A DNA stretch of 64,000 nt, taken from NCBI GenBank assembly GCA_951406725.2, contig CATOCA020000001.1:11780001-11844000 (forward strand). The letters run 5' to 3'. Every line of letters starts with the position of its first letter. The first letter of the stretch is position 1. This stretch comes from Octopus vulgaris. Its lineage: Eukaryota. Positions 15,001 through 42,000 of the stretch are shown here, in pieces. A program made the position numbers.

Positions 15001-18000
15001 GGCTTCATATTCACTCCTCTAGCAAGCTCATCGAGAACTGAAACATCCGCCCGCAGAGATTCAATCTCTTTTTGTATCGCTACTTTCCACTTAGGAGGTT
15101 CATTGACATGCCTGGCCTTTTTCTTTGTCATCTTAATACCTAGTTGGGTAGTTACTACTTTAGCAGTGGAATAAATGAGATTATTTAAGGTTGTCAAATC
15201 ATTCCCCTTATTTCTTAAGATCTGTCCTAGGGCAACGTTATATGTCATGATTGTGTTGTTATTTCTTGTGCCATTTGAAAACTTTGGTAGTGGTTCTCTA
15301 TTAACCATGTCAGTGAGCTCAATCTTGCCGAGTTCTCTCATAATGTCCACTTTTGCTTCCATAATCTTTTCTCTATTATTCACCTCAAATTCTATGTCAT
15401 ATCTATTTTGGTTTTCTTGAGGAAGGTCTACGTTCTCCTCTTTTTTCAAATCTCTCGCCTTCGCTATTCTTTGTTTAACTTCCCCATTGGGAAGTTGATT
15501 TGCCGCTTGTACACTGGCTTCTGTGCTACTGTTACCTATTTCGTCTACATTGTTGTTGTTTTCTTTTGGTCTACCATGAGCTATTAGTGTCCTAATTTTG
15601 TCAATTTCAGCGTCAGTTAGTCTTTTGTTTTTAATTATATCTCTGCGTACATTACTTAATTTATTTGCGTCTATATATCTACGTACGTCATTGCCTACTG
15701 AATTTCTCCATGAGATGTATGTTTGTACACTGAGGTTATTGTTTGGGTTTAGTTGGGCTGTATAAAAAGCTTTCAACACATCTCTATAGTCCTCTCTGGT
15801 CCATTTTATACGTTTTGCTTTAGGTGGTGTTTTTGGTGGTGTTACTACAAGTCCAGAGTTAGAAGTATTCTGGTTCTGGTCACCTGGTAGATCGTCTTTT
15901 TGAGAGTTTGTTCCAGCAGCAAACTTTTCGACCCCAGTCTGGTTCCCTACTGGGTAACGCGGTCCTTGTTGTCCCGGGCGATGACCGATCCGGCATGATT
16001 TTTGGCTTGTTTTCATTAAATGATTGACGGCGACATCAGAGGGGTCCATTTTTTTCAGAGTCAACTTTTTGACAAGACGCCGCCTCTGTGACGGTGACGT
16101 TAGAAGAAGGGACTGTTTGTACAGGGTCAATTTTTTGACAAGATACCGCTTCCGAATTCTCCGAATTAATATATTGTTCATATCGAACTCGCATAAGACT
16201 TACAGATCGAAATTCGCCTCTATTTATTTTGGTAGTCATGTTTCCGGGCATAACTGTTCAGTGACTTTCTAAATTCAGTGACCAATTTGCTCTTTTTTGC
16301 GTTTGTTCGTGAAAAATCGCTTTGTTTTTGTTTTGTTTTCGTCCGCGTAACGTGGTTTTTCTTTCTGTGTGCACGTGTGAGCGCGTGTAAGCATTATTTA
16401 TGTTTTATAATTAAAATGTGTACATGTATGCACAAGCAGTTGCATGTATACTTTACAATTAAAATGTCTACGTGTATGCATAAACAGTTGCATGTATACT
16501 TATTTAATTAATTAATTAATTAATCAATTTATGTACTTACTGTCTTTCAAGAGCTCTGATGTTCGCTTCTATTTCTTATGCATGTCACATGGAAATATTA
16601 TGCATAAAAGAAAGAAAACCATACTATATATGGCAATAATAGTTCGGACTTTTTAGTTACTTTGCCTTGAAAGAACATTTGGAAAAGATATTTTGTGGAA
16701 CCTTTCTTCCATTGCAACGATGTTGTTGGATTAAATTCGTTTTTTGGACAGAGGCTCCCAGGGAACATCCATGTTCTTAAAAGAACATTTGGAAAAGATC
16801 TTATAATTATTATTATTATTATCATTATTATTATTATTCTGTAGTCTTTTCTTTTCGCTTACTGTTTTGTGTCCCTCCACCATCCGCACAGCTTTCTCCT
16901 CCAGCTAAGACTCTCTCTCTATTATTATTATTATTATTATTATTATTATTATTATTATTATTATTATTATTATTATTATTATTATTATTATTATTATTAT
17001 TATAATTCAGTAGTTTAATTTTTATATCGTGCTTTCACTTCATTACCGACGCAGATTCTTCTTCTTCTTCTTCTTCTTCTTCTTCTTCTTCTTCTTCTTC
17101 TTCTTCTTCTTCTTCTTCTTCTTCTTCTTCTTCTTCTTCTTCTTCTTCTTCTTCTTCTTATTATTATTATTATTATTATTATTATTATTATTATTCTTTT
17201 TCAAATTTGCTTCCATTTCTTGCCGAGTGTCTTCCCGACTCCTAGGGCAAAGAAACTCATAGTATACATTGGTAGGCCATTAAACCAAACTCAATAGTTC
17301 GTTCATTTTTTTTTTTAAGTTAAATTAAAATACATGAGCAGCAACAGTTCTCACATCGACAATGCTCTTCTCAATACGTGTGATGTACCAGTTAAGACAA
17401 TCTTTTGCACTTCTTGCAGGGATGGTAAGCCAGGGATCATTCTCATATAATTTTCGGTTCCCTTCTTGATCATTCCTAGTGCTCCTACGATCACTGGTAT
17501 TGTAACCGCCTTGAGATGCCACATTTTCTCAATTTCAATGAGTAGGTCTTTATATTTTCTGAGCTTGTCAAACTCTTTCGCTGAGATATTATGATCACAG
17601 GGGATGCTCATGTCGATCAATAAGCAAACTTTATTGTTTTAGTCTTTCACAACAATATCTGGTTTATTGGCCTTGATGGTTGGGTCTGTATGTACTGGAA
17701 CATCATCATCACCATCATCATGAACATCATCGACATCATTATTATCTTTATTATTTTTATTATTATCATCATTATTATTATTATTATTATTATTATTATT
17801 ATTATTATTATTATTATTATTATTATTATTATCATTATTATTATTATTATTATTATTATTATTATTATTATTATCATAACTCGAAACCAGTTACACCTAT
17901 ACACGTGATGTCTATTCTGCTTTACTTACCAACGCAAGCTACTCCGTTCCAATCGGTCCCCACAGCGCAGCCACACATGTAGAATCCTGGAAAGTTGACG

Positions 18001-39000: not shown

Positions 39001-42000
39001 AGACACATTATCATCCGCTGGTATGGATACATCAATTAGAAGACATTATTATTATTATTATTATTATTATTATTATTATTATTATTATTATTATTATCAT
39101 TATTATTATTATTATTATTATTATTATTATTATTATTATTATTATTATTATTATTATTATTATTATTATTATTATTATTATTATTATTATTATTATTATT
39201 ATTATTATCATGATTATTATTATTATCATTATGTTTATTATTATCATTATTATTATTATTATTATCATTATTATTATTAGTATTATTATTATTATTATTA
39301 TTATTATTATTATGATTATTATTATTATTATGATTATTATTATATTATTATTATTATTATTATTATTATCATTATCATTATATATTATTATTATTATTAT
39401 TATTATTATTATCATTATGTTTATTATTATTATTATTATTATTATTCTTATTATCATTATTATTATTATTATTATTTTTATTATTATTATTATTATTATT
39501 ATTATTTTTTAAATTGTTATTATTGTTATTATTATTATTATTATTATTATTATTATTATTATTATTATAACATGAAACCTGTTACACCTTTACCTGTGAT
39601 TTTGTCTATTCTGCTTTACTTACCAATGCATGTTCTGCTGTTAAATTGGAACCCTGGATTACAGGTGCATGTGTAGGATCCTAGTGTGTTGGTACATGTC
39701 CCCTGTGTCCCGCATGGGTTCCCTGTGCACTCGTTTATGTCTGGAAAATTAAAATAATTGTATTGCATGGATATAACACTTATGTATCATCATCATCATC
39801 ATCATCATCATCATCATCATCAACGTCGTCATCGTCATCAACGTCGTCATGGTCGTATTCCTCGTCCTTGTCCTCCTCTTCGTCCTCCTCACCGTCCTCG
39901 TCGTTGTTGTGGTTGTTGTTATTATTAAGGTGATGAGTCGGCAGAATCGTGAACACGCTGGTCAAAATTATTGGTGTAATTTCGTCTTTCCGAGTTCAAA
40001 TTCTGCCAATGTTGACGTTGTAATCCATTGTTACGGAGTCGATGAAATGGACACTATTCAAGTATTAGTGTCGATGTAATCGACTGACCCCGACCTACCC
40101 CCAAATATCAGGCCTTATGCCCATTGTAGAATAAGTTAAATGCACCATCTTCTTTTAACAGATGTCAGATCTTTCTCAGCTCAGTTGGTGTGGCAAAGGG
40201 ATTATATACAACATCAAAATGGACACAAACTGATCAAATATGGTAGAAAGAAGACGAGACGACACGACGCTCATTTGCATATATTAGAATATAAAACTGG
40301 AAAAAGAAAATGGAAGAAATAGCGATGCTTTTCTTCAAAGGATTGTGATACGAAAGAAAAAGGAAATTTTAAACGAGACCATTGGTTATTATATTTGGAT
40401 ATAAAATAGAAAATATTAACAAAATATTAGGCCTTATCTAGACATAACACCCGGAGAGAACTGAACACATGTTCTTACCTCTGCAATGTCCAAACGCGCC
40501 GGTCCATCCTGTACAGCATTTGTAACAAGTTGAAAAAAATATTCTGTAAGCTACCCTGTTAAGAGAGAGAAGGATAGAAAAAGAAAATATAAAAACTGAA
40601 CAGTGACGATAATTTTAGACAATCGCACATACATACACATATGACACACATACACACACAGTCATACGCACGCACACGCACACACAGGTTACATGTTCAG
40701 AACTTACGCCTGTGTGTTTAGAAAATGTAAGTTTCCCAAATAATGTGCATTTTATATTCAAGGCTTTGATGAAGCTACAGGGTGTTATCCGGCTACTCAA
40801 CCAACACACCACCACATCACACAGCAGAAACAGCTGTTAGCCAATGAAGCTTATCATATAATTCCTCCGTTTTTCCAGTGTCATCTTTTTCTTTTCCCTT
40901 GCCACTCTATTCTCTTCTAACATTGTACTCTACACCACACGTGTATTGAGGTCTACACCAGGTTGTTATATTCGCTATGCCTACGCGAAATATCATATAT
41001 ATATATATATATATATATATATATATATATATATATATATATATTGGTAAAAACGGTAAGATAACAAAAGAAAGAAAGAGACCTCAATATTATGTAAATA
41101 GAGGAAATTTATCTATAAAAAAATATAAATTCTTCTGTGTGTAAGATTCCTCAACCGATGTTAGGCGATAATCCCAAAAAGCCGTATTAGCTCTTAGTGA
41201 AGAATAGCGTCGTCCGGGATGTAATTTATTGGTAAAAACGGTAAGATAGCAATAAATTACATCCCGGACGACGCTATTCTTCACTAAGAGCTAATACGGC
41301 TTTTTTGGATTATTGCCTAACATCGGTTGAGGACTCTTACACACAGAAGAATTTTTATTATTATATATATATATATATATATATATATATATATATATAT
41401 ATATATATATATATATATATATCGAGGCGCAATCACAGTTGTGTAGTAGGAAGCTCCACAACCACATTGTGTCAGTGTCAGTCCCACTGCGTGGCATTTT
41501 GGTCGTTTGTCTACTTCTCTAACCTCCGTCCGACCGAAGCCTTGTGCGGTAGACGGAGACTGAAAGAAGCCCGTCGTATGTATATATATATATATATATA
41601 TATATATATATATTTGTATATATATATATATGTATGTATATATATGTATATATATATATATATGTATGTATGTATATATAAATATATATATATTGATATA
41701 TATATATATATATACATGTGTGTCTCTGTATTTGTGTGTTTGTATATGTCTTTCCACCATCGCTTGAGAACCGATGTTGGTGTGTTTACGTCCCTGTAGT
41801 CTAGCGGTTCGGCAATGGCGGTAGGGTCGGTTTGTCGAACTAAAGGCTGTGCTCCAGCATGGCCACAGTTAAATTACCGTAACAAGTAAAAGAGTAATAG
41901 AAGAAAATATCACTTTATTGACAATTAAAAAACAACAAAGATCAATCAATCGAAAAGGTAATCCCTCGTTATCGATCAACTTTTGCCATCTTTCAGGCAA

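What the first reader, a model, noticed from the sequence alone, without database searches (positions are those of the whole stretch)
17930..40555. EMI + 12x cbEGF gene built from symmetrical exon cassettes, expanding by tandem amplification
Seen: twelve exons of exactly 117 nt, all phase 1-1 with intact AG/GT, no stops and six Cys each, downstream of an EMI-like exon. Six are diverged; six are nearly identical (differing only S/R) inside 1.94-kb units. Known: EMI followed by EGF modules occurs in EGFL7/8, MEGF6 and CED-1/Draper/Nimrod-type extracellular proteins. Inference: any subset of exons keeps the frame, so the locus could make a length-variable rod by copy-number polymorphism and/or combinatorial exon skipping. 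That would make it a candidate variable matrix or recognition protein.
Basis: partly seen in the sequence, partly recalled or inferred. Interest (0 to 1): 0.85.

Follow-up and report, generated by a model that had tools for sequence, protein, structure and literature searches.

The report
Octopus-type EGF-repeat gene, recently amplified
This is part of a probably cephalopod gene for a protein made of a chain of calcium-binding EGF modules, one per exon, six of which arose by very recent tandem duplication; this is a clean but ordinary case of how such genes grow.

Summary
On the minus strand there are twelve 117-nt exons, all cag|…|gtaa, all phase 1-1, each with six Cys and no stop. Eleven of 12 reach Pfam EGF_CA's cut-off on their own.

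Six exons sit in ~1.94-kb intron+exon units that differ by 0-4 substitutions per ~1,800 aligned bases. The array is really a 3-unit block (5,836 bp) present twice. Each unit carries a retrotransposon fragment, so this is plain DNA-level tandem duplication.

"EMI" is not supported. The exon has a CCTGW motif, but no Pfam EMI match was found. The closest relative is a partial Octopus vulgaris protein with a signal peptide, an 8-Cys domain and near-identical cbEGF modules. That domain has no other credible relative among 1.84 billion representative proteins. A probable second exon of this domain lies at 56008-56091, outside the finding.

Codon models show a constrained scaffold and near-neutral loops, with no significant positive selection. 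Length variation and exon skipping are possible in principle but untested. Octovafibrin, an octopus egg-thread protein of 29 EGF modules, is a published precedent. This is a new member of a known kind, of modest interest.

The parts
56008..56091 (-). Probable exon A: first half of the N-terminal Cys-rich domain (84 nt, phase 2 in, phase 2 out; 4 Cys, spacing C-x3-C-x11-C-x5-C)
   Evidence: Strong acceptor (ctttctttttttcag|G) and donor (AC|gtaaat). Its donor phase matches the acceptor phase of exon B. BLASTP to P0009 residues 96-109 gives E=0.018. It is the best local-alignment hit in the six frames of the window, but 4 of 60 shuffled queries score as high, and part of that score comes from translating the pyrimidine tract. 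It has no Pfam match at E<=0.01. Moderate confidence.
40479..40555 (-).
   Evidence: Sequence and splice sites. BLASTP to P0009 residues 123-139 gives E=8e-5. It holds the only CC.G[WYF] motif in the six frames. No Pfam match at E<=10.
39624..39740 (-). cbEGF exon 1 (diverged)
   Evidence: EGF_CA 33.7 bits.
37801..37917 (-). cbEGF exon 2 (diverged)
   Evidence: EGF_CA 30.0 bits.
37193..37309 (-). cbEGF exon 3 (diverged)
   Evidence: EGF_CA 33.6 bits.
36467..36583 (-). cbEGF exon 4 (diverged)
   Evidence: EGF_CA 31.2 bits.
30493..36301 (+). Non-LTR retrotransposon (~5.8 kb) inserted antisense into a microsatellite of intron 4
   Evidence: Homology of intron 4 to a standard long intron breaks at 30492 and resumes at 36302. 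There are three ORFs in one frame: 30687-32288, 32595-34073 (Exo_endo_phos, 66 bits) and 34077-36014 (RVT_1, 103 bits; zf-RVT). The last two are separated by a single stop.
18899..30492 (-). Young array: six intron+exon units of 1,921-1,955 bp (the sixth is cut at 30492), holding cbEGF exons 5-10. Organised as a 3-unit block (5,836 bp) present twice
   Evidence: Pairwise, 0-4 substitutions per 1,797-1,840 aligned columns. Units three apart differ least in gap columns: U1-U4 12, U2-U5 30, U3-U6 18, against 33-88 for the other pairs. U1 and U4 alone share two substitutions and two indels.
28599..28715 (-). cbEGF exon 5 (young copy, Arg form)
   Evidence: EGF_CA 36.7 bits.
26678..26794 (-). cbEGF exon 6 (young copy, Arg form)
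   Evidence: EGF_CA 36.7 bits.
24735..24851 (-). cbEGF exon 7 (young copy, Ser form)
   Evidence: EGF_CA 36.5 bits.
22787..22903 (-). cbEGF exon 8 (young copy, Arg form)
   Evidence: EGF_CA 36.7 bits.
20854..20970 (-). cbEGF exon 9 (young copy, Arg form)
   Evidence: EGF_CA 36.7 bits.
18899..19015 (-). cbEGF exon 10 (young copy, Ser form)
   Evidence: EGF_CA 36.5 bits.
23388..23948 (-). Reverse-transcriptase fragment (187 aa) inside a long intron. The same fragment is at 19513-20073, 21440-22000, 25337-25897, 27264-27824 and 29194-29754
   Evidence: tblastn with the window's own RT ORF (13221-16199): 53% identity over residues 664-850, E about 3e-57, at all six places.
18370..18486 (-). cbEGF exon 11 (diverged; by nucleotide differences the nearest module to each of modules 1-10)
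   Evidence: EGF_CA 37.1 bits.
17930..18046 (-). cbEGF exon 12 (most diverged; last EGF exon in the window)
   Evidence: EGF_CA 25.0 bits, below the 27-bit cut-off, E=2.3e-5. The exon differs from the others at 34-41% of bases, while its flanks differ at 5-13%.

Best explanation
This is the middle of a minus-strand gene, probably cephalopod, for an extracellular modular protein.

Shown by the sequence:
- A short Cys-rich domain ends in CCxGW. Exon B is clear; exon A, 15.5 kb upstream, is probable.
- Twelve calcium-binding EGF modules follow, one per 117-nt phase 1-1 exon.
- Every junction rebuilds Asp, so each module starts D-x-D/N-E-C.
- Consecutive modules are joined C6-x-D-x-D/N-E-C1.
- The array grew by tandem duplication of an intron+exon unit. 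Older rounds gave the six diverged modules. Recent rounds produced three near-identical 1.94-kb units, and then the 3-unit block (5.84 kb) was copied once more.
- The duplicated DNA includes microsatellites and a reverse-transcriptase fragment, so this is DNA-level duplication.

Inferred:
- The mechanism is unequal homologous recombination or replication slippage between the repeat-rich introns.
- The protein is secreted, because the octopus relative has a signal peptide.
- The EGF run forms an elongated Ca2+-stiffened chain whose length is set by module number. The module linker is, from recall, the fibrillin type.
- Its role is structural (fibre, matrix or adhesive), by analogy with octovafibrin, rather than variable recognition.
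For: - Exon anatomy and splice phases.
- EGF_CA at or above cut-off for 11 of 12 exons searched singly.
- Ca-binding consensus residues are present in 12 of 12 modules: junction Asp, D/N at position 3, E at 4, N at 18, Y/F at 23.
- Scaffold constraint: under M1a, 24% of codons have omega about 0. These are the Cys, Glu, Asn, Pro and two of the Gly positions.
- Retention of six Cys and an open frame is unlikely under random change, P = 0.0003 for exon 12.
- Unit identity and the higher-order pattern.
- The RT fragment is present in all 6 units.
- Intron 4 is a seventh long intron split by a retrotransposon.
- The closest relative, P0009 (partial, Octopus vulgaris, 341 aa), has a signal-peptide-like start, an 8-Cys domain ending CCKGW, then five 39-aa cbEGF modules. 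Modules 2 and 4 are identical, and module 5 matches module 3 as far as the partial record goes. A relative therefore shows the same kind of recent amplification.
- Octovafibrin is the main protein of Octopus bimaculoides egg threads. It has 29 consecutive EGF modules with Cys at positions 5, 10, 16, 25, 27 and 36, D/N at 3 and Y/F at 23 (PMC10336842, section 16 read). Here the Cys are at 5, 10, 16, 25, 27 and 38.
Against: - There is no transcript or protein evidence for this locus.
- The 5' end is missing. No signal-peptide exon was found on the minus strand between 56092 and 64000.
- The 3' end is unknown. No extracellular Pfam domain appeared among 75 downstream and 104 upstream minus-strand ORFs of 40 aa or more.
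- Exon A is only moderately supported.
- Across modules the overall omega is 0.95, not different from 1. Outside the scaffold the modules look unconstrained.
- A 5.8-kb retrotransposon sits in intron 4.
- Octovafibrin has C-type lectin ends, which were not found here. Its authors report that PROSITE called none of its EGF domains calcium-binding.
- The number of near-identical units cannot be checked without reads.
Confidence: 0.65

Rival explanations
1. The locus encodes a variable recognition or matrix protein whose length differs between individuals (unit copy number) and between transcripts (combinatorial skipping of frame-neutral exons).
For: - Any exon subset keeps the frame and rebuilds the junction Asp.
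- The units are near-identical over ~1.9 kb. Such arrays are the usual substrate of unequal exchange (general knowledge).
- Exons are not more conserved than their flanks. The exon is the more diverged in 17 of 21 module pairs and the less diverged in 2.
- Loop codons evolve at omega about 1-1.4.
- The flanks on the two sides of an exon are weakly complementary in 5 of 7 modules.
Against: - There are no data on polymorphism or isoforms.
- M2a is not better than M1a (2dlnL = 1.57, p = 0.46), so positive selection is not shown.
- All 12 exons have strong, near-identical splice sites, which suggests constitutive inclusion.
- The known octopus EGF array is a structural fibre.
Confidence: 0.2
2. 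The gene is a member of the EMI-domain or Nimrod/Draper/MEGF group of engulfment and adhesion receptors.
For: - CCTGW sits directly before the first EGF module, and CCKGW does in P0009.
- An ESM Atlas cluster in which 97% of members carry EMI ranks second, at score 0.77.
Against: - No Pfam EMI hit for exon A, exon B or P0009.
- The domain is about 53 residues with 8 Cys. An EMI domain, from recall, is about 75 residues with 7 Cys.
- The modules are canonical cbEGF, not the NIM consensus CxPxCxxxCxNGxCxxPxxCxCxxGY quoted (spacing).
- phmmer with the P0009 domain against 1.84 billion representatives found only P0009 itself and one repetitive protein.
- An Atlas score of 0.77 is within the tool's stated chance range.
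Confidence: 0.1
3. The six-unit array, or its second 3-unit block, is an assembly artefact, and the true locus has fewer units.
For: The two 5.84-kb blocks differ by only 0-1 substitutions per unit. The rest is microsatellite length, which is the kind of difference long-read errors can create.
Against: - The units are not identical. They carry private and shared substitutions and indels in a consistent 3+3 pattern.
- The array has defined, different junctions at its two ends.
- There are no N runs in the window.
- From general experience, assemblers more often collapse such repeats than expand them.
Confidence: 0.12
4. The window holds a decaying, non-functional paralogue, and the recent amplification is neutral.
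For: - No 5' signal-peptide exon and no 3' end were found.
- The overall omega is 0.95.
- There is a retrotransposon in intron 4 and a 15.5-kb transposon-filled intron before exon B.
Against: - All 12 exons keep their length, frame, six Cys, Ca-binding residues and strong splice sites. That includes exon 12, which is 34-41% diverged.
- The scaffold codons have omega about 0.
Confidence: 0.15

Closest known systems
P0009, 'wall 2-like isoform X3, partial [Octopus vulgaris]' (name as given by NCBI)
   Same: It has the same architecture as far as it goes: an 8-Cys domain ending CC-x-GW directly before the first module, then 39-aa cbEGF modules. The modules are 46-87% identical to the window's modules. 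Its own modules are near-identical in a 2-unit alternation.
   Different: The N-domain is only about 41% identical over 14-17 aligned residues per exon. It is therefore a paralogue, or the gene of a distant species, not the same gene. The record is partial and ends inside the array. Its accession and other names could not be looked up.
Octovafibrin (Octopus bimaculoides egg-thread protein; accession XP_014771937.1 as printed in PMC10336842)
   Same: It is an octopus secreted protein with a long uninterrupted run of EGF modules. The Cys positions 5, 10, 16, 25 and 27, D/N at 3 and Y/F at 23 are the same. Its demonstrated role is a load-bearing fibre.
   Different: It has 29 modules flanked by C-type lectin domains, with the last Cys at position 36. 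The authors report that PROSITE called none of its modules calcium-binding. Here there are 12 modules, the last Cys is at 38, EGF_CA matches are clear, no lectin was found, and the N-domain is different. Its sequence could not be fetched, so no alignment was made.
Fibrillin / LTBP cbEGF arrays
   Same: The modules are canonical cbEGF. The inter-module linker is, from recall, the type that gives a Ca2+-stiffened rod. Fibrillins dominate the search hits by total score.
   Different: No TB (8-Cys) domain was found. PF00683 is absent from P0009's precomputed domain list and from the window's ORF scans.
Nimrod superfamily (Eater, NimB/C) and EMI-domain proteins (Draper/MEGF10, EMILIN, EGFL7)
   Same: A CCxG[Y/W] motif lies just before a run of EGF-type repeats. 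Eater has 32 such repeats (PMC4359741, passage).
   Different: The repeats here are cbEGF, not NIM. The motif ends in W, not Y. There is no Pfam EMI match.
LPA kringle IV type 2 coding VNTR (mechanistic analogue only)
   Same: It is a protein-coding tandem unit of exon(s) plus intron, kilobases long and near-identical between copies. LPA KIV-2 has 5.6 kb per unit and 1-40 units per allele (start of the abstract of PMC11462820, listed).
   Different: It is a different domain in a different lineage. Copy-number polymorphism is documented for LPA and unknown here.
Sea urchin fibropellins
   Same: They have up to 21 EGF-like domains between distinct end domains, in an extracellular fibrous layer of a marine invertebrate (as described in the Discussion of PMC10336842).
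   Different: Their end domains are C1s-like and avidin-like. No sequence comparison was made here. My memory that their EGF repeats are single exons with alternative splicing is recalled, not checked; one search found no paper holding those terms.

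Membership tests
Calcium-binding EGF (Pfam EGF_CA, PF07645) | Profile match at or above the curated cut-off (27 bits) | tested here: met
   Eleven of 12 exons, each searched alone as 38 codons, score 30.0-37.1 bits. Exon 12 scores 25.0 bits, E=2.3e-5.
Calcium-binding EGF (Pfam EGF_CA, PF07645) | Six Cys with EGF spacing | tested here: met
   C-x4-C-x5-C-x8-C-x-C-x10-C in 12 of 12 modules.
Calcium-binding EGF (Pfam EGF_CA, PF07645) | Ca-binding consensus D/N-x-D/N-E/Q before Cys1, Asn/Asp between Cys3 and Cys4, and an aromatic residue before Cys4 (consensus recalled) | tested here: met
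   The junction codon G|AC or G|AT gives Asp in 12 of 12. D or N is at position 3, E at 4, N at 18 and Y or F at 23 in 12 of 12.
Calcium-binding EGF (Pfam EGF_CA, PF07645) | Actual Ca2+ binding | not testable with these tools
   Needs expressed protein.
EMI domain (Pfam PF07546) | Profile match | tested here: not met
   No EMI row for exon B at E<=10, its 58-aa frame at E<=1, exon A at E<=0.01, or whole P0009 at E<=10. The joined product of exons A and B was not built or searched.
EMI domain (Pfam PF07546) | About 75 residues with 7 Cys (recalled definition) | tested here: not met
   Exon A codes for 27 residues with 4 Cys and exon B for 25 residues with 4 Cys, plus one junction codon. That is about 53 residues and 8 Cys. 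P0009's domain likewise has 8 Cys in 51 residues.
EMI domain (Pfam PF07546) | C-terminal CC-x-G-[WY] motif followed by a Cys | tested here: met
   CCTGW-x6-C in exon B.
EMI domain (Pfam PF07546) | EMI fold | tested here: inconclusive
   An AlphaFold2 single-sequence model of the P0009 domain had mean pLDDT 42.6, so no fold search was run. Structure hits for the ESM Atlas's own model had TM below 0.5.
Nimrod superfamily | [quoted passage not shown] | tested here: inconclusive
   CCTGW (window) and CCKGW (P0009) are in the right place but end in W, not Y.
Nimrod superfamily | NIM repeats CxPxCxxxCxNGxCxxPxxCxCxxGY | tested here: not met
   The Cys spacing and residues of all 12 modules are those of cbEGF.
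Fibrillin / LTBP | TB (8-Cys) domains between cbEGF runs | tested here: not met
   No TB family appeared among the 179 minus-strand ORFs of 40 aa or more scanned, nor in P0009's precomputed Pfam list. Exons with open frames under 40 aa would be missed.
Octovafibrin-type egg-thread protein | C-type lectin domains at both ends of the EGF run | tested here: not met
   No Lectin_C in P0009 or in the 179 ORFs. The ends of the gene may lie outside the window.
Octovafibrin-type egg-thread protein | Uninterrupted run of EGF modules with Cys at 5, 10, 16, 25, 27 and 36 | tested here: inconclusive
   The first five positions agree. The sixth Cys is at 38 here. No sequence alignment was possible.
Coding VNTR (LPA KIV-2 type) | Near-identical tandem units containing whole exons and introns | tested here: met
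   Six units, with 0-4 substitutions per 1,797-1,840 aligned columns.
Coding VNTR (LPA KIV-2 type) | Unit number differs between individuals | not testable with these tools
   No reads and no second genome of this species were available.

The most novel reading that the evidence does not exclude
The locus is an actively expanding, copy-number-polymorphic coding repeat in a cephalopod-specific family (an orphan CCxGW domain plus a cbEGF chain). Module number tunes the length or mechanics of a secreted fibre. Selection also keeps particular modules, notably exon 12, distinct, while recombination homogenises the introns around them. That would make it an invertebrate counterpart of LPA KIV-2 with a mechanical read-out.
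Probability: 0.2. Interest if true: 0.55.

Novelty: new member of a known kind. Interest (0 to 1): 0.3.

Why it matters
Symmetrical phase-1 EGF exons and growth by exon duplication are long-established features of modular extracellular proteins. The locus therefore does not change any concept.

Its value is as a clean snapshot. Old and very young duplications lie side by side. The duplicated unit is defined to the base. A higher-order (3+3) step is visible. A retrotransposon fragment was carried along.

Together with octovafibrin and the Octopus vulgaris relative, it suggests that octopus-type genomes hold several EGF-chain genes that are still changing length. If unit number varies between animals, the locus would offer a natural series for asking how EGF number sets the properties of a protein fibre.

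The N-terminal 8-Cys domain has no detectable relatives outside this small family and deserves a structure.

Tried and rejected
- **Candidate exon at 40708-40836.** It lies just upstream of exon B, but its only good donor (GGC|gtaagt) is in phase 0 in the open frame. The phase-2 frame opens only 14 codons before the donor and the phase-1 frame only 3. Rejected.
- **Look-alike of the end of exon A at about 40945-40985.** It shows no DNA similarity to exon A beyond a TA-rich run; 6 of 200 shuffles score as high. Rejected as chance.
- **Signal-peptide first exon, 56092-64000 minus strand.** My filter (ATG, hydrophobic stretch, phase-2 donor) found 0 candidates. Local alignment with the first 95 residues of P0009 gave only low-complexity hits.
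- **Relatives of P0009's first 150 residues.** The word-indexed search returned only P0009 itself at near lengths and nothing among longer proteins.
- **phmmer of the 56-aa P0009 domain against 1.84 billion representatives.** It found P0009 and P0106 (E=4.5e-4). On reading, P0106 is a repetitive protein, so I take that hit as spurious.
- **PDB sequence search.** Nothing at E<=10.
- **AlphaFold2 of the domain without an alignment.** pLDDT was 42.6, so no fold search followed.
- **Positive selection.** Pairwise dN/dS ranged from 0.32 to 2.74, pooled 0.94. My own codon-model code on the IQ-TREE topology gave M0 omega 0.95 (p=0.84 against 1) and M2a against M1a p=0.46. No positive selection is claimed. 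Recombination among modules also violates the single-tree assumption.
- **Downstream and upstream domains.** Pfam on 75 and 104 minus-strand ORFs found only transposon-related and weak chance families.
- **RNA scans.** No tRNA was found. Rfam found one 5S rRNA match outside the gene.
- **Literature.** PMC9290575 (mollusc EGF-like shell proteins) concerns two-EGF proteins and is not related. A search for fibropellin exon structure found nothing.
- **The listing of cluster members.** Unavailable.
- **Collections and supplements.** The supplements of PMC10336842 (peptide table, sequence figure) could not be seen.

Full report
**What is there.** The window has no N. Its best protein relative comes from Octopus vulgaris, and the window is full of invertebrate-type transposons, so I take it for cephalopod rather than human. 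The species itself could not be established.

The feature lies on the minus strand. A mechanical scan for AG|117 nt|GT windows without stops and with at least 5 Cys returned 12 EGF-like exons and one low-complexity row on that strand. All 12 have a pyrimidine tract ending cag, a donor G|gtaagtaaa (gtaattaaa once), phase 1 at both ends and six Cys. tblastn with the octopus relative found EGF matches at these 12 places and nowhere else at meaningful E-values.

Searched one exon at a time, 11 of 12 reach Pfam EGF_CA's 27-bit cut-off (30.0-37.1 bits). Exon 12 scores 25.0 bits. Every exon ends in G and begins with AC or AT, as does the end of the preceding exon B. Each junction therefore encodes Asp, and each module reads D-x-D/N-E-C…C-x-N-x4-Y/F-x-C. 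From recall, that is the calcium-binding consensus. The spliced product was not assembled or searched. All protein searches were made exon by exon, and that joined step is left out of this report.

**More than chance.** I placed the observed number of random changes on exon 11. All six Cys and an open frame then survive in 3.6-9.6% of 20,000 trials for exons 1-5, and in 0.03% for exon 12. All exons are exactly 117 nt, although the introns vary from 323 to 7,751 nt and are full of microsatellite indels.

Codon models (my own code, on the IQ-TREE topology, seven distinct modules) put about a quarter of codons at omega near 0. These are the Cys, Glu, Asn, Pro and two of the Gly positions. The rest sit near 1. 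Overall omega is 0.95, and a class with omega above 1 is not supported (M2a against M1a, p = 0.46). The older modules therefore show scaffold-only constraint, which is usual for EGF repeats. I do not claim diversifying selection.

**The young array.** Six intron+exon units span 18899-30492. They differ pairwise by 0-4 substitutions per 1,797-1,840 aligned columns. The remaining differences are microsatellite length.

The variants are not random. Units 1 and 4 alone share two substitutions, one of which is the Ser/Arg change, and two indels. Units 2 and 5 share another indel. Units three apart have the fewest gap columns (12, 30 and 18, against 33-88 for the other pairs). The array is thus a 3-unit block of 5,836 bp present twice, which explains the S-R-R-S-R-R order of the exons.

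Each long intron holds the same 561-nt reverse-transcriptase fragment in the gene's orientation, together with (TCA)n, (ATT)n, (TAT)n and (TTA)n tracts. Intron 4 is a seventh copy of this long intron. It is interrupted at 30493-36301 by an antisense non-LTR retrotransposon with endonuclease and RT domains and a single internal stop.

The short introns around the older exons share the same flanks and microsatellites. All 12 modules therefore descend from one intron+exon unit duplicated at different times. Unequal recombination or slippage between these repeat-rich introns is the inferred mechanism.

**An unexplained detail.** Exons are not better conserved than their immediate flanks (48 nt upstream, 55 nt downstream). 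The exon is the more diverged in 17 of 21 module pairs, tied after rounding in 2, and less diverged in 2. The difference has p < 0.01 in 9 pairs, uncorrected.

For exon 12 the contrast is large: 34-41% in the exon against 5-13% in the flanks, with p from 4e-6 to 2e-8 in all six pairs. Most changed codons in exon 12 differ at two or three bases, while unchanged residues mostly keep the same codon.

Two explanations are open. Recombination may keep homogenising the introns while selection keeps this last module different. Alternatively, the exon itself changed quickly. I cannot separate the two.

**The 'EMI' exon.** Exon B (40479-40555) ends C-x2-CC-x-GW-x6-C and holds the only CC.G[WYF] motif in the six frames of the window. 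It aligns to residues 123-139 of P0009, just before that protein's first EGF module (E = 8e-5).

It has strong splice sites, a donor phase that fits exon B's acceptor, four Cys and a weak match to P0009 residues 96-109 (E = 0.018). By score alone it is not significant, since 4 of 60 shuffles reach it. I rate it moderately likely.

None of the following gives a Pfam EMI match: exon B (E<=10), its 58-aa open frame (E<=1), exon A (E<=0.01), or whole P0009 (E<=10). The P0009 domain has no PDB sequence match. It has no credible relative among 1.84 billion representative proteins, and without an alignment it gave no usable structure model. An ESM Atlas feature score of 0.77 to a cluster carrying EMI is only a lead.

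The motif and its position also recall the CCxGY motif of Nimrod proteins (PMC4073527, passages). The repeats here, however, are cbEGF, not NIM.

**Ends of the gene.** No signal-peptide exon was found upstream within the window. No known extracellular domain was found among 179 minus-strand ORFs of 40 aa or more on either side. The gene model is open at both ends. An in-frame TAA follows every donor (G|GT AAG TAA, or GT AAT TAA in exon 2; 12 of 12), so read-through of any donor would end the protein two residues later.

**What is known.**
- P0009 shows that this domain-plus-cbEGF architecture is annotated in Octopus vulgaris, and that its modules are also near-identical in an alternating pattern.
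- Octovafibrin is the 135-kDa protein of Octopus bimaculoides egg threads. It has 29 consecutive EGF modules with the same first five Cys positions, and D/N at 3 and Y/F at 23. It also has lectin ends and a sixth Cys two residues earlier (PMC10336842: outline, section 16 and passages).
- Symmetrical phase-1 exons as a mark of module duplication, and as a possible aid to alternative splicing, are discussed for other families in PMC5400394 (passages).
- LPA KIV-2 is the standard example of a coding tandem unit with variable copy number (start of an abstract only).
- My searches found no paper describing this CCxGW family. It has no name to search for, however, and much of the literature is outside the library.

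**Verdict.** The EMI label is not, and the variable-length recognition idea remains untested speculation. The most likely reading is a secreted EGF-chain protein of a small cephalopod family, of structural type, caught in the act of gaining modules.

Noticed in passing
window 5964-6082 (-): A full-length 5S rRNA match (97.7 bits, model positions 1-120) lies between two TA microsatellites. It could be a 5S gene or a 5S-derived element.
   Followed up: no
window 30493-36301 (+): A nearly intact non-LTR retrotransposon inside intron 4. It has a 534-aa ORF1 with no Pfam match, then endonuclease and RT ORFs in one frame separated by a single stop at 34074-34076. It ends with AATAAA next to an (ATT)n tract.
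   Followed up: partly
window 12349-16199 (-): A large retroelement with a 993-aa RT ORF and a 322-aa C-terminal ORF. Fragments of the same family lie in intron 1 (38117-38550, 38773-39045), after exon 12 (17363-17689) and in all six long introns.
   Followed up: partly
window 6210-7300 (-): A mariner/Mos1-type transposase remnant: Transposase_1 at 6210-6842, and an HTH_48 match in one of the 75 downstream ORFs, whose location the tool did not report. Further Transposase_1 matches occur in two upstream ORFs.
   Followed up: no
window 45341-46323; 53917-54732; 60996-63886: Three longer tandem arrays: 140 bp x 7.0 (96% matches, lying in repeated 69-aa open frames), 166 bp x 4.9 (94%), and 184 bp x 15.7 (66%).
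   Followed up: no
window 41180-41300: A perfect-looking inverted repeat (hairpin, MITE-like) just upstream of exon B, seen on reading the sequence.
   Followed up: no
flanks of exons 2, 3, 5, 11 and 12 (48 nt upstream, 55 nt downstream): The two flanks of an exon can pair with each other (duplex -18 to -21 kcal/mol, against -11 to -13 +/- 3 for shuffles; 0-19 of 200 shuffles reach it). Exons 1 and 4 do not show this. Much of the pairing is between the purine-rich donor and the pyrimidine tract, so it may be trivial.
   Followed up: partly
all 12 EGF exon donors: An in-frame TAA lies two codons after each exon end (12 of 12). It is a by-product of the phase-1 G|GTAAGTAA donor, so any unspliced donor would end the protein cleanly.
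   Followed up: no
P0009 (Octopus vulgaris), residues 187-341: Its modules 2 and 4 are identical, and module 5 matches module 3 as far as the partial record goes (Val/Met alternation). This is a 2-unit higher-order repeat in a relative of this gene.
   Followed up: no
window 20573-20641 and five more copies, one per long intron (-): A short open frame with four spaced Cys recurs in every long intron. It matched my relaxed Cys pattern and is probably chance.
   Followed up: no
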